NCBI GenBank assembly: GCA_040393285.1
Contig: JBEBUO010000001.1
Location: forward strand, 1-42,771
DNA: 42,771 nucleotides
Source of the DNA: Taibaiella helva
Lineage (GTDB): Bacteria > Bacteroidota > Bacteroidia > Chitinophagales > Chitinophagaceae
Direction of reading: 5' to 3'
This document shows positions 17,420 through 27,764 of this stretch, piece by piece. The notes beneath the pieces were generated by a model, which saw only the letters and a program-made list of their open reading frames with translations, did not search any database and was not told where the DNA came from. Position numbers and translations under genes: made by a program. Numbering within the stretch: position 1 is the first letter of the stretch; each line of letters starts with the position of its first letter.

Positions 17420-18652
17420 TCAGGCAGGTACTTCATCGGCCAGGGGCACTTGTGTATGCAGTAAATCCTCCAGGGTTTCCCGGCGGCGTATCAGTCTGGC
17501 TTCCCCACCATCCACAAGTACTTCTGCTGGCTTTAAGCGGGAGTTGTAGTTAGACGCCATCATCATGCCATAAGCACCTGCATTGTGAAAGCAGAGAATA
17601 TCTCCTTCGCGCACTTCCTTCAATTGCCGGTCTGAAGCAAAGGTGTCGGTTTCGCATATGTAGCCCACAATGGTATAAATGCGGTCTTTCCCATGTGGGT
17701 TAGAGAGGTTGGTAATATGGTGGTAGGCATCATACAGCACCGGCCTGATCAAATGATTAAATCCGGAATCTACACCTGCAAATACGGTAGCTGTGGTATG
17801 TTTTATGACATTGGTCCGCGTCAGGAAATAGCCGGCCTCGCTCACCAGGAACTTACCCGGTTCAAAATGTATTTCTATATCGCGCCCAAATGACTTGCAG
17901 AAAGCCCGGTAGCGGGTGGTCAGCTTTTTACCCAGGCTACCCACATCAGTAGTGATATCACCGTCTTTATAAGCCACTTTAAACCCGCTGCCGAAATCAA
18001 GATAACGGAGATTGGGGAAGCGCATGGCCAGTTCAAACAATAGCTCAGCGCCATTCAAAAACACCTCTACGTCGAGTATGTCGCTGCCGGTATGCATGTG
18101 CAAGCCCACTACGTCCAGGTCAAAGGTTTGCACCAGTCGCTCTACGTGGCGCATTTGATGAATGGAGATGCCGAATTTGCTATCAATATGACCGGTAGAT
18201 ATCTTATAATGGCCGCCCGCCATAATATGGGGATTAATGCGGATGCATACCGGCACGGTATTCCCGTATCGATGCCCGAATTGCTCCAGCATGGAGATGT
18301 TATCTACATTAATATTTACACCCAGCTGAATGGCAGCTTCTAATTCTGAAAACGACACACAATTGGGGGTGAATAGGATGGACTCCGGATCGAATCCGGC
18401 CATCAAACCCAACTGTACTTCTTCGATAGAGACCACATCTAAGCCGGCACCAAGTTCTTTAAATAGTTGCAGCACATGGATATTGGTAAGTGCCTTAGCG
18501 GCGTAATGCAATTTCACCTTACAGCCACTGAAAGCATCAGTAAGTTTCCGGTATTGTTTGCGCATCGTAGCGGCATCATACACATAAAGGGGCGTGCCAT
18601 GGCTCGCTGCCAATTGTAGTAATTGTTGTTGGGTCATGTTCTTGTTTGTCAT
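17420..18652 (-). CDS. lysA: Diaminopimelate decarboxylase
   Basis: GTPLYVYD, PLP lysine in YAAKA, SKFGI, HMHTGS, EPGKF, CETD, GAYG..MASNYN. Alternative start 18637. Confidence 0.97.
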   Translation of the reverse strand: MTNKNMTQQQLLQLAASHGTPLYVYDAATMRKQYRKLTDAFSGCKVKLHYAAKALTNIHVLQLFKELGAGLDVVSIEEVQLGLMAGFDPESILFTPNCVSFSELEAAIQLGVNINVDNISMLEQFGHRYGNTVPVCIRINPHIMAGGHYKISTGHIDSKFGISIHQMRHVERLVQTFDLDVVGLHMHTGSDILDVEVFLNGAELLFELAMRFPNLRYLDFGSGFKVAYKDGDITTDVGSLGKKLTTRYRAFCKSFGRDIEIHFEPGKFLVSEAGYFLTRTNVIKHTTATVFAGVDSGFNHLIRPVLYDAYHHITNLSNPHGKDRIYTIVGYICETDTFASDRQLKEVREGDILCFHNAGAYGMMMASNYNSRLKPAEVLVDGGEARLIRRRETLEDLLHTQVPLADEVPA

Positions 18653-18663
18653 ACGGATATTAG

Positions 18664-18696
18664 AAAATAAAAAGGCTTGCCTCGATCGGCAAGCCT
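18664..18696 (-). terminator. Attenuator terminator in the lysA leader
   Basis: AGGCTTGCC-GATCGA-GGCAAGCCT (perfect 9 bp) followed by TTTTATTTT, ending 11 nt before the lysA ATG. Confidence 0.85.
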
Positions 18697-18735
18697 CTGT
18701 TAAAGATTTTTTATGTAGAAAGACAAAAAGAATCC

Positions 18736-18801
18736 TTAGCCTACCGGGTATAGCTGGAAGTACTTCTTTATCTTTATGATGGTCACTTGTTGGTAAGTCA
18801 T
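18736..18801 (-). CDS. Putative lysA leader peptide MTYQQVTIIKIKKYFQLYPVG
   Basis: 21-codon ORF with a Lys cluster (AAG ATA AAG AAG) between a promoter-like element and the terminator upstream of lysA. Confidence 0.8.
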   Translation of the reverse strand: MTYQQVTIIKIKKYFQLYPVG

Positions 18802-18826
18802 GCGCTTATTTTTCTCGAAAGCGGTG

Positions 18827-18834
18827 CAATAATA
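18827..18834 (-). promoter_or_regulatory. -7-like element (TATTATTG) for the leader-lysA transcript
   Basis: One mismatch to TAnnTTTG, followed by CACCGC as at other promoters here; 25 nt before the leader ATG. Confidence 0.5.
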
Positions 18835-18862: not shown

Positions 18863-19546
18863 TTAGTCCTGCAGCACCCTTCCCTTTCCTGCGGGTGGCC
18901 GGTAATGTCCTTTTTTGTTATGTGGAAGAGCCTGCTTCCGCTGTTCTATACGCATACTATCGGTCACAGAAGTATACTGAAATGTTTTCTCAGAAACCAG
19001 GTCGTCTACCTGGTATATTTCTTCTTTAACCAATTGCCCCGAAGTGGCGTCATAATATCGCCATACCCCATGCTTAAGCGGCCCCTGATAATTCGTGATG
19101 GCCACGAGCGTGTCGTACAGGGTAATAGGATCTGTGATCCATATTGAATCAATTTTTTGTTGTGCAGAAAAGGCACGGTATTGCCCGTCGCAGACCAGTT
19201 TGCCTTTTTCATAATACTGGGCCTGTCCATCCAGGATATCCCGCCGGAAATGTTCGATGGACATCAGTCTTCCTTCCGTATCTAAGGTATACCAGGCACC
19301 CTGTTTCTGATCATCACGATAATTACCAAAACGGGTGTAGCCCGGCTCTCCACGTAAAGGCGCCACCTGAAAAAACCAGGTACCCTGTTTCCTGTTTTGC
19401 TTATCTTTTTGGTTCAGGCTGTCGTGCGTTGTTTCCCTGCTCGTTTGCGCACGACCCTGTTCCTGAGCTGCAACATTTGTAATAAACAAAAGCAGCGCGG
19501 GAGCAAGCGCAAAAAGTACCCAGCTTATAGAACGAATCTTTCTCAA
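18863..19546 (-). CDS. Exported MORN-variant repeat (YwqK-like) protein
   Basis: Signal peptide; repeats KQGTWFF, KQGAWYT, LDGQAQYY, KHGVWRYY; TTG start abuts the iscA stop codon. Confidence 0.85.
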   Translation of the reverse strand: MRKIRSISWVLFALAPALLLFITNVAAQEQGRAQTSRETTHDSLNQKDKQNRKQGTWFFQVAPLRGEPGYTRFGNYRDDQKQGAWYTLDTEGRLMSIEHFRRDILDGQAQYYEKGKLVCDGQYRAFSAQQKIDSIWITDPITLYDTLVAITNYQGPLKHGVWRYYDATSGQLVKEEIYQVDDLVSEKTFQYTSVTDSMRIEQRKQALPHNKKGHYRPPAGKGRVLQD

Positions 19547-19930: not shown

Positions 19931-20443
19931 CTAACCCTCCGTAGCGTCATCTGCTTTGTCTTTCTTGGCTGCGGCTTGCTTGTCCTTTTCCTCATTCGCT
20001 TGGTCCCCTTCCGTTTCTTCCTCCTGGGTCACGATAAACTGAGGCAGTACAAATCCGGATTGCTGTTGCTGCTGCATTTTCTCTTTTTGTTCTACAAAAG
20101 AACTGTAGCTGCCGAACTGACGCATCAATTGATATCCTTCATTGGTCAGGTTCAGCTTCCCGGTATTTCCAAAGCCGATCACCCCGTTTACCAGTCCCGT
20201 ACTCATCAGTATCTCCCATATACGCTCATATTCCTGTTCAGATATCCGAATGCGGTGCGGACGCAGAATCTCTTTATCCAGCTTCTTGGTGATCCGGTCC
20301 CCTTCGTTATACAGTTCTTGCAGTGTTGTATCTATTATATACACATCCTGCGCCTGCTTATCGGGGAATACGGGCAACGAATTCCGGTTGCGAAAGCGGG
20401 TAATGACATTATTCTTTTTATTCCTGTTGGTTATTTTATCCAT
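19931..20443 (-). CDS. Hypothetical protein, possible winged-helix domain with a Gln/acidic tail
   Basis: Fills the gap in a same-strand gene run; LNLTNEGYQLM resembles a wHTH wing; QQQQQ and E/D-rich C-terminus. Confidence 0.75.
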   Translation of the reverse strand: MDKITNRNKKNNVITRFRNRNSLPVFPDKQAQDVYIIDTTLQELYNEGDRITKKLDKEILRPHRIRISEQEYERIWEILMSTGLVNGVIGFGNTGKLNLTNEGYQLMRQFGSYSSFVEQKEKMQQQQQSGFVLPQFIVTQEEETEGDQANEEKDKQAAAKKDKADDATEG

Positions 20444-23231: not shown

Positions 23232-25472
23232 ATGTGGCAATACGCTAATAAATTTTCGATTTTTCTATGTGTAGTACTACTCCTTGCGTCGGTGGGTGAT
23301 GTGCATGGGCAAAGACGGAAAAAAAGAAACAAAAAAACAAAAGTCAGGACGGAACAACTGAAGCCACATGAAATAGATACTTTATTACAGCCTATTCCCA
23401 TCAACCGACAGGCATTTACCGATAAAATTGCCCATCAGGTAAACATCGCCGACCGTAAGGATGGCAGCCTGGATCAGAAGATTGAAGTGGATGACCCCAC
23501 AGTTTCGGAAGCTTACACGCAGATCATTATCCAGGGTGTACCGAGGGTGATGAACCATATTGAAAATATGCAAAGCGCCTCCCATACCGGGAAAATAGCG
23601 TATCACCGTGCTTTGGAAGATATGGTCAAAAGCTTTAATGCCCGGCCCATGTCCAGCTCAGAGATCACGTACATGAGGCGCAGGCTGCGTAATTTCGATG
23701 AGCTCATCGATGCGCTGGAGACGAATTCCATCAAACAATATGTCAATAAAAACGCCAATATTTATACCCTGGATAATAGCGAGTTACTGAGGGATTATCC
23801 GCAACAAAAGGCTTTTGTATTTCAAACCGTGGGTAAGGTACGACCCGAAGTAATGATCCGGCGGCTGCCCGAGTTTGCCAAAGAAGCCTATGCCGATCCC
23901 ATCGTCGCCACTGCGGCCCAGGTGGTGCCGGGTACCATTCTTACCTATGCCACCTCCACCAGTTATCTCAATGCCGTTGTACGCCGTAATGCAGATCCCC
24001 TGGTGCAGGCTATTGTGCGTATTGCCTCCGAATCGCGCAGCCCCCTTAAAGCACTGCCTTTTCTTGGCGATGTGTATCACAAGCGCAAGACCGTAAGACA
24101 GATAGATGCCATTACCAATGATCCTGTGGCCTATTACAAAGCACTGGTGCAGCTAAAAGTCCAGAATGAAACCCTGGCTGCGGACTATATTGATAAAGAA
24201 TTAAACCACAGAGGCTTGCAACTCGTACGCAAAGTGAATGAACTTCATGATGCGCCGGCCGCCACACGCTTTAAGTCGCTCCTGCCCTTTGGGGCGGAAG
24301 ACCTGTACTTTATGATGATTGGCAGCCAGGACGAGATATATACCAGCAGCTTTACCTGGATGTTTGGCCGGATGATGGAAAAGATGAAACCCATGAGCGG
24401 TGATCAGCTTCTGGACAAAGTACATAAAAACCATTTCCGCACCTTCATCCGCATGTGCGCCGGTTACAATACCCTGACCCCCTTCCTGGCCTCAATTGAA
24501 AGGACGCAGAAAGAAACATTAATGAAAGAGTTTGTGGCGGGCCTGGAACAAGGGGAACAGGATGACCTGACCGATGCGGTGGATGTGGCTGATGCATTTG
24601 GCAGCCTCTCCGACCCCGAGCTCATCAGCTTTTTAAAAGCTGAAGTAAAAACCCACCTCAACCATATGCGTAGCAGCCAGCTGGAGTCGGCCGACAAGGG
24701 AGAAATTGTGTACGGCTTGCTGCATACTATCTTTGAGAGTGCCGAAAATACGGAAAAGCTAAGCAGTGACCTGGATCGCCTGGTACCACCTATTACTTAT
24801 GTACCCAATAGCGCTATGAGAAACAGCCAGGGTGCCATTATTGTAAGGGTATACTTCTACGGAGATGCCGATGGCAAAATCTCATTCAACAGTTTTAAAT
24901 CCAACTTCCCGGCGGCTAAATGGAGCAGTGAAAGCAACAAGCAATGGATCAAATACACCGCTAAAAGTAAGGATCACCCTGTAATCGTATATGCCAATCT
25001 ACCCCTTTCCGAACCGGCGGACGAAACCGCACAAAGAGCACTCACCCAGTTTCTAAATGAGAAAGGACTGGACCCCGGCATTGTTATTCACCGTGGCCAC
25101 AGCTACCACCTGGAAGGCTCGCTGGCACAGCTCAGTCCGGCTACCAAAGTAGTGATGCTGGGCTCTTGCGGAGGCTACCATAACCTTTCTGCAGTACTGG
25201 ACAAGTCGCCGGATGCCAACATCATCTCTTCCAAGCAGATTGGCTCTTTTAGTATCAACGAACCCATCATCCGTGAAATACTACAGCCCTTACAGGAGGG
25301 TAAAGACCTGGACTGGATTAAAGCCTGGACTGACCTGGAAACCTACTTCAGCAAAAGGAGCAAGCAGGAAAAAGACCTGTTTAGCGACTATGTGCCACCT
25401 AATAAAAACCTGGGCTCTATTTTCATTAAAGCCTACCGGAAACAACTTGATCTGCTGGAAGAGGAGGTATAA
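23232..25472 (+). CDS. Exported hypothetical protein, paralogue A; putative C-terminal clan CD-like cysteine peptidase domain
   Basis: 746-aa ORF with signal peptide; full-length similarity to the next gene; IVIHRGHSY and VVMLGSCGG motifs. The CDS is secure; the function is inferred. Confidence 0.85.
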   Translation: MWQYANKFSIFLCVVLLLASVGDVHGQRRKKRNKKTKVRTEQLKPHEIDTLLQPIPINRQAFTDKIAHQVNIADRKDGSLDQKIEVDDPTVSEAYTQIIIQGVPRVMNHIENMQSASHTGKIAYHRALEDMVKSFNARPMSSSEITYMRRRLRNFDELIDALETNSIKQYVNKNANIYTLDNSELLRDYPQQKAFVFQTVGKVRPEVMIRRLPEFAKEAYADPIVATAAQVVPGTILTYATSTSYLNAVVRRNADPLVQAIVRIASESRSPLKALPFLGDVYHKRKTVRQIDAITNDPVAYYKALVQLKVQNETLAADYIDKELNHRGLQLVRKVNELHDAPAATRFKSLLPFGAEDLYFMMIGSQDEIYTSSFTWMFGRMMEKMKPMSGDQLLDKVHKNHFRTFIRMCAGYNTLTPFLASIERTQKETLMKEFVAGLEQGEQDDLTDAVDVADAFGSLSDPELISFLKAEVKTHLNHMRSSQLESADKGEIVYGLLHTIFESAENTEKLSSDLDRLVPPITYVPNSAMRNSQGAIIVRVYFYGDADGKISFNSFKSNFPAAKWSSESNKQWIKYTAKSKDHPVIVYANLPLSEPADETAQRALTQFLNEKGLDPGIVIHRGHSYHLEGSLAQLSPATKVVMLGSCGGYHNLSAVLDKSPDANIISSKQIGSFSINEPIIREILQPLQEGKDLDWIKAWTDLETYFSKRSKQEKDLFSDYVPPNKNLGSIFIKAYRKQLDLLEEEV

Positions 25473-25526
25473 AACGCCATACTCCTGCCGATGTACCATT
25501 CTTAGTATTTATGTACCTTTACTGAT

Positions 25527-27764
25527 ATGAACTTTACAAAAGCAACCACCTTACTCTTGACCGCTTCCTGCCTGCTCGCCGCTGACCTTTCGATGGCGCA
25601 AAAAAGGAACAGGCACGAGGAAACCGAGGAACCGAAACAAGCACCCAAGCCATGGGAAGTGGACACCTTGATCAGGCCCATCCCCATCAACCGTCAGGGC
25701 TTTACCGACAAGGTGATGGCCCAGGTGCGCAGGGCCGACCTACGTGACGGTGCCGTGGATGAGGTGATTGAAATACAGGACACCGCAAGTTCCAGAATGC
25801 TTACCGAGGTACTGCTCCAACGCGTGCCCAGAATCATGATACATATTGAGAACCTGGAACAAGCCGACCACCGCACCAAGCTGGGCTACCACAGGGCGCT
25901 GGAAGGACTGATGCGCAGGCTGAATGCCAAAAGCCTGGAATCCGGAGATCTCAGTTACTTCCGCAAATCGGTCAATAATTTTGAGGCCATTATCATTGCC
26001 CGGGAAGAAGGCCGTTTACCCGAATTCGTCAAAGAAAATGCCAATATCTATACCCTTGATAATGGCGAGCTGCTGGATGATTTCCCGGATGTAAAAGCCT
26101 ATGTATTCGAAACCGTAGGCACAGCCAAACCGGAGATCATGATCAAACGCTTGCCCGAGTTTGCCAAAGAAGCATATGCCGACCCGATCGTAGCCACTGC
26201 TGCCAAAGTAGTACCCGGTACCATACTCACTTATGCCACCTCTACCAGCTACCTCAATAGTGCTGTACGTAGAAATAAAGATCCCCTGGTGCAGTCTATC
26301 GTGCGCATTGCTAACGAATCGCGCAATCCGCTCAAGGTACTACCCTTCCTGGGTGATATTCATAACCAACGCAAAACGGTAGCTGAGCTGGATGCCATTA
26401 CCGAAAATCCCATTCAGTATTACAAAGCGTTGGTGGGGCTTAAATTACAGAACGAAACCATTGCTAAAGACTATATTGATAAAGAATTAAAGCTACGCGG
26501 CCTGCAGTTCGTTCGTGTGGTTAATGAATTGCATGATTCGCCTGCGCCTGTCCGCTTCAAGTCGCTCAGCCCCTTTAGTGCCGAAGACATTTATTTCATG
26601 CTGATCGGCAGCCAGGATGAAATCTACACCTCAAGCTTTACCTGGATGTTTAACCGCATGGTAGCATTGATGGATCCCCTTCCCGGCAACGAGTTTCTCA
26701 CCAAGATTCATTACGACCATTTCCGCACCTTTATCCGCATGTGCGCAGGCTATAATACCCTGGCCGATTTCCTGGGTACCATGGCCCAGGCAGAAAAACA
26801 AAACCTGATGCGTGACTTTGTGGCGAATCTGGAAAAGGGTCAGCCCGATGATCTCGAAGACGCCGTTGATGTGGCAGATGCCTTCGGTAGCCTTAACGAC
26901 CCCAAGATTATTGATTTTCTTAAAAATGAAATCCGAACCAATTATGAGCGCACCTATGCCGCCAATAACCAGGAAAGCGAAAAAGGCGTGATCGTTTACG
27001 GCCTGTTAAGCACCATCTTCAACCACAACGAATCTGAGTCCGGCTTGAATAACAACCTCACCAGCATCATTCCGCCCATTACCTATGTTCCTTATGAATT
27101 TCTGAAAGATTCCACCACCTCAAGTGTGGTACAGCAAGTATTTTTCTACGGTGATAAAGACGGTATGGGCGCTTACAACAATTACCTCAACCTGTTTCGA
27201 AACAACAACTGGAAAATAGAATATACCAATAAGTACTGGACTACCATCACCTCGACTGGTGCCAATAAAGTAATCATTTACTCTAATGTACCACTGCCCG
27301 AAGAGGCAGAGGAAAATGATGAATTTGCCCAGAATAAGCTACAGGCTTTTCTCGATGAAAATGATATCCATCCGGCGGTCATCATCCACCGTGGCCACAG
27401 CTATTACTTACCCACTACCCTCAAGCACCTCACACCTTCTGCCAAAATCATTGTCCTGGGTTCCTGCGGTGGCTACCACAACCTGGCCACGGTACTTGAT
27501 GCTTCTCCCGATGCCCATATCATATCTTCCAAGCAGGTTGGCGCCTTACGTATTAATGTGCCCATCATCAATGCTATTAACAACGACCTGGTAGCAGGCA
27601 GGGATGTCAACTGGATTGACATGTGGAGCAACCTGTCCAAATATTTTGCATCCCAGGGCGCCGGACAGCAAGATTTGTTCAGTGATTACATACCACCCAA
27701 TAAAAACCTGGGTGCCATATTCATTAAGGCCTATAGAAAAATGGCCATGGCCAGTAACCAGTAA
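25527..27764 (+). CDS. Exported hypothetical protein, paralogue B; putative C-terminal clan CD-like cysteine peptidase domain
   Basis: 745-aa ORF with signal peptide; VIIHRGHSY and IIVLGSCGG motifs. Confidence 0.85.
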   Translation: MNFTKATTLLLTASCLLAADLSMAQKRNRHEETEEPKQAPKPWEVDTLIRPIPINRQGFTDKVMAQVRRADLRDGAVDEVIEIQDTASSRMLTEVLLQRVPRIMIHIENLEQADHRTKLGYHRALEGLMRRLNAKSLESGDLSYFRKSVNNFEAIIIAREEGRLPEFVKENANIYTLDNGELLDDFPDVKAYVFETVGTAKPEIMIKRLPEFAKEAYADPIVATAAKVVPGTILTYATSTSYLNSAVRRNKDPLVQSIVRIANESRNPLKVLPFLGDIHNQRKTVAELDAITENPIQYYKALVGLKLQNETIAKDYIDKELKLRGLQFVRVVNELHDSPAPVRFKSLSPFSAEDIYFMLIGSQDEIYTSSFTWMFNRMVALMDPLPGNEFLTKIHYDHFRTFIRMCAGYNTLADFLGTMAQAEKQNLMRDFVANLEKGQPDDLEDAVDVADAFGSLNDPKIIDFLKNEIRTNYERTYAANNQESEKGVIVYGLLSTIFNHNESESGLNNNLTSIIPPITYVPYEFLKDSTTSSVVQQVFFYGDKDGMGAYNNYLNLFRNNNWKIEYTNKYWTTITSTGANKVIIYSNVPLPEEAEENDEFAQNKLQAFLDENDIHPAVIIHRGHSYYLPTTLKHLTPSAKIIVLGSCGGYHNLATVLDASPDAHIISSKQVGALRINVPIINAINNDLVAGRDVNWIDMWSNLSKYFASQGAGQQDLFSDYIPPNKNLGAIFIKAYRKMAMASNQ

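What the first reader, a model, noticed from the sequence alone, without database searches (positions are those of the whole stretch)
18664..18834. Candidate ribosome-dependent lysine attenuator (leader peptide, antiterminator, terminator) upstream of lysA
Seen on the minus strand, in order: promoter-like TATTATTG (18827-18834); a 21-codon ORF MTYQQVTIIKIKKYFQLYPVG* (18801-18736) with Lys at codons 10, 12 and 13, all AAG; then a perfect 9-bp terminator with U-tract just before lysA. The end of the leader, CGGTAGGCT (18746-18738), can form 9 contiguous pairs (3 G-U) with GGCTTGCCG (18695-18687), the terminator's 5' arm. Inference: a ribosome stalled on Lys codons leaves this segment free to form the antiterminator, while a ribosome at the stop codon masks it so the terminator forms. 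Established: this is the logic of the trp/his/thr attenuators, whereas lysine genes are best known for lysine riboswitches, T-boxes or LysR control. Whether this element is already described in Bacteroidota needs a literature check.
Basis: partly seen in the sequence, partly recalled or inferred. Interest (0 to 1): 0.85.

Follow-up and report, generated by a model that had tools for sequence, protein, structure and literature searches.

The report
Lysine leader-peptide attenuator before lysA
A 21-codon mini-gene with three lysine codons and a transcription stop signal sits in front of the last lysine-synthesis gene; the same RNA layout recurs in related Bacteroidota before other lysine genes (with lysine codons) and before a histidine gene (with histidine codons), so it most likely lets stalled ribosomes switch lysine synthesis on, in a lineage where I found no such switch described.

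Summary
The element is a conserved leader-peptide transcription attenuator; lysine control is inferred, not assayed. In 16 of 18 lysA leaders the last Lys codon ends 12-13 nt before the antiterminator strand. A model of it hits 99 of 151 genomes of the family. Of 105 hits inspected, 97 precede amino-acid genes: Lys-rich leaders before asd, dapA, lysC, an aminotransferase-lysC pair and lysA, and His-run leaders on the same scaffold before hisG. That is a natural codon swap. The lysine riboswitch was not found in 41 family genomes; no Rfam family matches. Named carriers are Taibaiella (Chitinophagaceae). The mechanism is classical. Lysine attenuation is recalled for Thermus (paper not seen), and this scan earlier noted lysine leaders in Chloroflexota and before lysC-lysA fusions, on other DNA. 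I found no description of this Bacteroidota family in 10 open-library searches. No RNA data were available.

The parts
18827..18834 (-). Bacteroidota-type -7 promoter box (TAnnTTTG consensus recalled; one mismatch here)
   Evidence: T1, A2, T6, G8 invariant in 16 of 16 aligned leaders; the sigma-70 scan found nothing, as expected for this promoter type; start site not mapped
18736..18801 (-). leader ORF, 21 codons plus stop, MTYQQVTIIKIKKYFQLYPVG*
   Evidence: orthologous Lys-rich ORFs in 16 of 16 aligned leaders; translation inferred
18763..18774 (-). control codons: Lys10, Ile11, Lys12, Lys13 (AAG ATA AAG AAG)
   Evidence: across 18 lysA leaders AAG occurs 61 times in frame, 5 and 5 times out of frame
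18748..18775 (-). segment 1: 5' side of the predicted protector (anti-antiterminator) hairpin, pairing with 18744-18738 and 18730-18719
   Evidence: -12.5 kcal/mol; predicted in all 16 leaders; RNAalifold consensus helix, columns 103-120
18731..18746 (-). segment 2: 5' strand of the predicted antiterminator, overlapping the leader stop codon
18702..18730 (-). inner stem of the antiterminator; its U-rich 5' part is a switch strand that pairs with the Lys codons (protector) or with the downstream A-rich strand (antiterminator)
   Evidence: weakly conserved in sequence (72% of cells paired)
18687..18696 (-). segment 3: shared 3' strand of the antiterminator and 5' arm of the terminator
18664..18698 (-). 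intrinsic terminator, segments 3:4 plus U-tract
   Evidence: 11 pairs, 6 G-C; -19.0 kcal/mol; core pairs kept in 15-16 of 16; one pair A-U to G-C in 3
17420..18652 (-). lysA, diaminopimelate decarboxylase (410 aa), the regulated gene
   Evidence: TIGR01048, 400.4 bits, above the cut-off

Best explanation
This is most likely a classical ribosome-mediated transcription attenuator that turns lysA on when charged tRNA-Lys is scarce. Shown in sequence: promoter box, Lys-rich leader ORF, three mutually exclusive helices (1:2, 2:3, 3:4), U-tract and lysA, all conserved in relatives. Inferred: RNA polymerase starts just after 18827 and a ribosome translates the leader. With lysine plentiful, the ribosome reaches the stop codon at 18738, covers segment 2, and the terminator ends the transcript near 18665. 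With lysine short, it stalls at AAG codons 10-13, covers segment 1 and leaves segment 2 free; the 23-bp antiterminator captures segment 3 before segment 4 is made, and transcription enters lysA. Without translation the protector would form first and favour termination. In this window the switch must be kinetic, because the terminator is slightly more stable at equilibrium.
For: (1) Conservation. 10 of 10 full lysA loci of the genus and 6 of 80 metagenome lysA loci (all 69-77% lysA identity) carry the layout, with different upstream genes in some (L007, L008, L010). A genus genome outside the training set scored 101.7 bits before its lysA fragment. (2) Codons. Lys is 21% of leader codons against 5.5% in long ORFs of the genome. 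AAG is in frame 61 times against 5 and 5 out of frame. (3) Geometry. The last Lys codon ends 12-13 nt before segment 2 in 16 of 18 lysA leaders (16 and 17 nt in the other two, 17 here). The His leaders show 10-16 nt, which fits a ribosome covering about 12 nt past the decoded codon (PMC4833913, section 4, read). (4) Masked folding gave P(antiterminator) above 0.5 with a stall at the last control codon in 102 of 104 elements analysed. (5) Codon swap. Leaders are 18-25% Lys before asd, the aminotransferase, lysC and dapA, and 30% His with 3.5% Lys before hisG (genes confirmed). (6) One position covaries across segments 2, 3 and 4 (T-A-T 73, A-T-A 17, A-T-G 8, other 6; all 104 keep both pairings). 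On the 109-row model alignment, 185 cells change on both sides against 66 in shuffles. (7) Sample chosen by protein, not by leader: 16 of 30 asd loci have promoter, Lys ORF and terminator; 9 of 9 genus hisG loci, this genome's included, have His leaders. (8) Lysine riboswitch RF00168 not found in 41 family genomes, found in 4 of 14 controls.
Against: No expression, ribosome or reporter data. Within the 16 lysA leaders alone the antiterminator shows no covariation beyond shuffles (71-466 of 500 shuffles as high); its core is simply conserved. The alignment is fitted to the structure, includes 9 opposite-strand matches, and its rows are related; the A-T-A change may be one event. Segment 2 was picked by complementarity, and loss of the antiterminator with a ribosome at the stop follows from the mask. 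Seven elements were dropped (segment 3 not recognised), and 2 asd loci from the codon counts (wrong ORF picked). In this window the terminator wins at equilibrium in the full transcript under every mask, and the conserved last Lys is Gln here. The model was trained on Lys-rich leaders, which biases its hits. One aminotransferase leader (L198) has a His run and one Lys. None of 20 lysA loci from other genera and families, and none of 28 lysC loci from other families, showed the element.
Confidence: 0.88

Rival explanations
1. A multivalent attenuator that also responds to other aspartate-family amino acids (Ile, Thr), as the E. coli thr leader does (recalled).
For: Ile is 14% and Thr 9% of lysA leader codons; Thr is 13% in asd leaders; genome Ile is 6.6%. 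Ile-Lys pairs recur in the control region.
Against: His leaders also hold 10% Ile and 6% Thr, so part is A/U-rich background. The Ile codons are the rarer ATA (41 of 50). LysA serves only lysine. The residue at fixed spacing is Lys.
Confidence: 0.07
2. A sensor of general translation speed or of nascent-peptide stalling (Lys-X-Lys motifs), not of lysine supply.
For: The window has KIK; Arg/Lys-X-Arg/Lys motifs are linked to macrolide arrest (PMC12583479, start of abstract).
Against: The peptide between the Lys residues is not conserved. Downstream genes are lysine-pathway genes, and the scaffold carries His codons before hisG.
Confidence: 0.03
3. A plain terminator of the upstream psd-iscA gene run, with a chance ORF in A-rich DNA.
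For: No terminator-like site lies between the upstream gene's stop (18863) and the leader, so read-through transcripts would also end here.
Against: The element stays with lysA when the upstream gene changes. It lies downstream of a conserved promoter box. The Lys codons are frame-specific, and the layout is unique among 345 hairpins of the assembly.
Confidence: 0.02

Closest known systems
Classical leader-peptide transcription attenuators (E. coli trpL, hisL, thrL; Rfam Thr_leader RF00506)
   Same: Leader ORF with clustered control codons, 1:2 / 2:3 / 3:4 helices, intrinsic terminator before a biosynthetic gene (mechanism from established knowledge; trp described in PMC12612679, passage read).
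   Different: Control codon is Lys. No sequence-family match: RF00506 scores 16 bits against a gathering score of 55.
Thermus thermophilus lysine (alpha-aminoadipate) cluster leader-peptide attenuator, Tsubouchi et al., J Biol Chem 2005 (recalled; look-ups failed, nothing seen)
   Same: Lys codons in a leader peptide control lysine synthesis by attenuation.
   Different: Other phylum and other pathway (here diaminopimelate; DapD-like and DapF genes in 5 of 5 genomes). Here the element is spread over several unlinked genes. Sequence relation not tested.
Bacteroid-trp RNA motif (Rfam RF01692; Weinberg et al. 2010, PMC2864571: Table 1 passage and supplement header read)
   Same: A Bacteroidota peptide-leader RNA with a terminator; shows the mechanism class was already predicted in this phylum. 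Its alignment note names Trp and His codons.
   Different: Trp, not Lys. No match to the window or to 13 related loci; no hit over cut-off in 5 family genomes.
Lysine riboswitch (Rfam RF00168)
   Same: Same purpose: lysine control of lysC, asd, dapA, lysA-type genes, often through a terminator (established knowledge).
   Different: No aptamer here; not found in 41 family genomes searched.
aspC motif, SRC-45-1 (Narunsky et al. 2024, PMC11109978; passage read, supplement not readable)
   Same: RNA motif upstream of a putative amino-acid aminotransferase gene.
   Different: Described as a three-stem junction with no leader ORF or terminator mentioned; the main text has no 'Bacteroid' or 'lysine'. 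Probably unrelated, but the alignment could not be seen.

Membership tests
Classical leader-peptide transcription attenuator | Short leader ORF enriched in codons for the end product of the downstream pathway | tested here: met
   Lys 21% in lysA leaders, frame-specific; His 30% in hisG leaders
Classical leader-peptide transcription attenuator | Intrinsic terminator between leader and first gene | tested here: met
   (sequence and structure only)
Classical leader-peptide transcription attenuator | Antiterminator exclusive with the terminator, free when the ribosome sits on control codons and covered at the stop | tested here: met
   (computed; equilibrium folding with masks)
Classical leader-peptide transcription attenuator | Protector (1:2) hairpin | tested here: met
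   predicted in 16 of 16 lysA leaders
Classical leader-peptide transcription attenuator | Leader is translated, and termination responds to the amino acid in vivo | not testable with these tools
   needs reporter, Term-seq or Ribo-seq
Lysine riboswitch RF00168 | Covariance-model score above gathering threshold | tested here: not met
Bacteroid-trp RF01692 | Covariance-model score above gathering threshold; Trp codons | tested here: not met
   no Trp codon in the leader
Thr_leader RF00506 | Covariance-model score above gathering threshold | tested here: not met
   16 bits against 55, E 1.2
T-box RF00230 | Stem I with specifier loop and T-box bulge | tested here: not met
   no Rfam match in the window at gathering score or at E up to 10
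Thermus lysine leader attenuator | Sequence homology to the hcs leader | not tested
   sequence not fetched; resemblance is by function and recalled

The most novel reading that the evidence does not exclude
The lysA leader reads lysine twice. Its Ile codons are ATA (41 of 50; 25% in the genome), placed directly before AAG. ATA needs tRNA-Ile2 modified with lysidine, which TilS builds from free lysine (established knowledge; tilS is present). The ATA-AAG repeats would then sense both tRNA-Lys charging and a lysine-derived tRNA modification, on a portable attenuator cassette that the family has retuned between His and Lys and moved among five genes. Against: asd (16 of 49), aminotransferase (3 of 19) and His (22 of 78) leaders do not favour ATA; 13 of 36 ATA third bases are paired in the protector; the lysA leaders share ancestry.
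Probability: 0.1. Interest if true: 0.85.

Novelty: new variant of a known kind. Interest (0 to 1): 0.5.

Why it matters
It supplies the likely lysine control for a large soil and freshwater family in which no lysine riboswitch was found. It defines a predicted lysine regulon (aminotransferase-lysC, asd, dapA, lysA) whose membership shifts by lineage: asd in many genera, lysA in this genus. It shows one RNA scaffold used with two amino acids, a natural version of the codon-swap experiment. It ties an unassigned PLP aminotransferase (no NCBIfam model over cut-off; followed by lysC in 13 of 16 loci) to lysine synthesis, a testable candidate for aspartate aminotransferase or for the DapC step in genomes with a DapD-like gene and no DapL over cut-off. 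It also implies transcription-translation coupling in these bacteria. The mechanism itself is textbook.

Tried and rejected
Rfam at gathering and E-value thresholds: no family. Sequencing runs: no RNA holder listed; this is no evidence either way. Covariation within the 16 lysA leaders: not above shuffles. Three apparent Lys ORFs before lysA in L073, L075 and L076 are the ends of an upstream gene; L082 was flagged too and not counted, without inspection. Lysidine sensing as a general feature of Lys leaders: rejected, kept only for lysA as the novel case. Phylum-wide spread: 12 of 151 genomes hit, 5 outside the family, of which 2 were true leaders of this kind; only 19 candidates per genome were scored, so recall is low. 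Origin of the lysA copy: mean identity in the non-coding part is 0.59 to aminotransferase leaders, 0.58 to hisG, 0.52 to asd, on a model-fitted alignment; donor unresolved, no tree built. Literature: 10 searches listed no paper on a lysine leader attenuator in Bacteroidota and none holding the Thermus paper's title as a reference. Four look-ups from memory were not held. The Lyubetsky-group survey of attenuators in Bacteroidetes (Lopatovskaya et al. 2010, recalled, not seen) and the supplement of PMC11109978 may bear on novelty.

Full report
Observation. The leader folds better than shuffles (z -2.7). Rfam has no match. In the assembly, 345 terminator-like hairpins were found; 53 have a comparable alternative pairing, 2 of these also have a promoter box and short ORF, and only this one has 3 or more Lys codons (the other is a tRNA-like stretch, and the scan missed the genome's His leader).

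Relatives of lysA. Of 11 genomes in the genus, 10 have a full lysA, and all 10 carry the element. Of 80 metagenome lysA loci, 6 carry it, all at 69-77% protein identity; 3 loci were cut at the 5' end and several had short upstream DNA. None of 20 lysA loci from other genera and families has it; one more genus was found later by the model (L112, 89 bits). A pattern scan of the genome collection returned two named records, both Taibaiella (Chitinophagaceae), and at least one lies before lysA. The 16 aligned leaders keep the promoter box, the Lys region, GGTRRG, GCTTRCC and the terminator, at 55% mean column identity.

Anatomy. Segment 2 (GGTRRGY) can pair back with segment 1 just after the Lys codons, or forward with segment 3, the terminator's 5' arm. 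A U-rich strand after the stop codon pairs either with the Lys codons or with a downstream A-rich strand. The protector is predicted in 16 of 16 short transcripts. In the window the three helices are -12.5, -17.3 and -19.0 kcal/mol. With a ribosome mask at a Lys codon, the transcript ending before segment 4 forms the antiterminator (P 1.00 here); with the mask at the stop codon it cannot. The second result follows from the mask; the informative part is the spacing, 12-13 nt from the last Lys codon to segment 2 in 16 of 18 leaders. Here it is 17 nt, because the usual last Lys codon is CAG. In the full-length window transcript the terminator wins at equilibrium under every mask, so the switch would be kinetic. 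Covariation within the lysA set alone is not above shuffles.

Codons. In lysA leaders Lys is 75 of 352 codons, 61 of them AAG; long ORFs of the genome have 5.5% Lys, 40% of it AAG. AAG is in frame 61 times and out of frame 5 and 5 times, so A-richness does not explain it. The assembly has a tRNA-Lys(CTT).

A family-wide set. A covariance model (E-values rough) hit 99 of 151 family genomes at 138 places and 11 of 11 genus genomes. I fetched 90 of the 138, the better-scoring ones, plus the genus hits, and classified 105 loci outside the training set: hisG 47, asd 28, a PLP aminotransferase 16, lysC 2, dapA 2, lysA 2, SAM riboswitch leaders 2, one His leader before another ORF, and 5 weak hits without a leader. 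Leaders before lysine-pathway genes are 18-25% Lys; those before hisG are 30% His and 3.5% Lys. The aminotransferase is followed by lysC in 13 of 16 loci. The asd and dapA copies have GGAAGG / CCTTCC / GGAAGG where the others have GGTAAG / CTTACC / GGTAAG, a change that keeps both the antiterminator and the terminator. On the model alignment 185 cells change on both sides against 66 in shuffles; the alignment is fitted and the rows are kin. Samples chosen by protein avoid the model's bias: 16 of 30 asd loci have a Lys leader with terminator, and 9 of 9 genus hisG loci have a His leader. In this genome asd and aminotransferase-lysC lack the leader and hisG has one. That leaves lysA, the only lysine-specific step after the diaminopimelate branch to cell-wall synthesis, as the controlled gene found (assembly 76% complete). 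Outside the family, one genome has a Lys leader before lysC and one a His leader before hisG; 0 of 28 other lysC loci had a terminator (30 fetched, one too short, one left out as unpublished). The lysine riboswitch was not found in 41 family genomes.

Mechanism. Most likely a ribosome stalled at AAG codons for lack of Lys-tRNA masks segment 1 and lets 2:3 form, so lysA is transcribed; a ribosome at the stop masks segment 2 and 3:4 terminates. Sequence, conservation and computed pairing are shown. Start site, translation, stalling and lysine response are inferred. Confidence 0.88. Rivals are multivalent Lys/Ile/Thr sensing, general stalling, and a plain operon terminator.

Comparison with what is known. 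It works like trpL, hisL and thrL and meets every feature testable here, but belongs to no Rfam family. Peptide leaders in Bacteroidota are on record for Trp (Bacteroid-trp, PMC2864571; table passage and supplement header read). Lysine attenuation by a leader peptide is recalled for Thermus thermophilus (Tsubouchi et al. 2005; not seen). Passages of PMC2965389, PMC4833913 and PMC11109978 showed no lysine leader in this phylum. Ten searches of the open library found none; subscription papers and some supplements were out of reach. Earlier notes of this scan report lysine leaders in Chloroflexota and before lysC-lysA fusions, and none similar to this sequence or naming this family.

Verdict. A real, conserved, apparently uncatalogued lysine attenuator family of Chitinophagaceae, sharing its scaffold with a histidine attenuator. 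New variant of a known kind; interest 0.5. The bolder reading, double sensing through ATA codons and lysidine, has probability about 0.1.

Noticed in passing
G000:C157, about 160 nt upstream of hisG (L307): His leader MFNQLHHHHLHTCPQARR* with a terminator; most genus members have a different terminator from the family-wide His leader, and one keeps the family form (L311).
   Followed up: partly
G000:C4:31121-33648 (minus): Aminotransferase-lysC pair; its upstream region has a promoter box and a Met-Thr-stop mini-ORF but no Lys leader or terminator, unlike 9 of 10 other genus genomes.
   Followed up: partly
L117, L150-L158 and others: Unassigned class I/II PLP aminotransferase under a Lys leader; best NCBIfam hits are aspartate aminotransferases, all far below cut-off. 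Candidate AspC or DapC.
   Followed up: partly
L198: Leader before the aminotransferase with a His run and a single Lys (MNNNINRKHHHCL...); possible scaffold exchange or changed specificity.
   Followed up: no
L237 (G193, other family): Leader ORF with three Cys codons and a terminator before a gene that looks by eye like an O-acetylhomoserine sulfhydrylase; possible cysteine attenuator.
   Followed up: no
L160, L167: SAM riboswitches (RF00162) before cystathionine gamma-synthase-like genes, with terminators resembling the attenuator's.
   Followed up: partly
L232 (G280, other family): Lys-rich leader MILIIKNIKKTTKTTVRLME* on the same scaffold before an aspartate kinase.
   Followed up: partly
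L037: A lysA at 70.6% identity has a tRNA-like gene upstream in place of the leader (by eye).
   Followed up: no
window 18863-19546 and 19931-20443 (minus): Two ORFs (227 and 170 aa) without a Pfam family; the first lies upstream of lysA in most genus loci. No terminator-like site separates it from the leader.
   Followed up: no
window 23232-27764 (plus): Two adjacent, visibly similar ORFs of about 745 aa with signal-peptide-like starts; not scanned.
   Followed up: no
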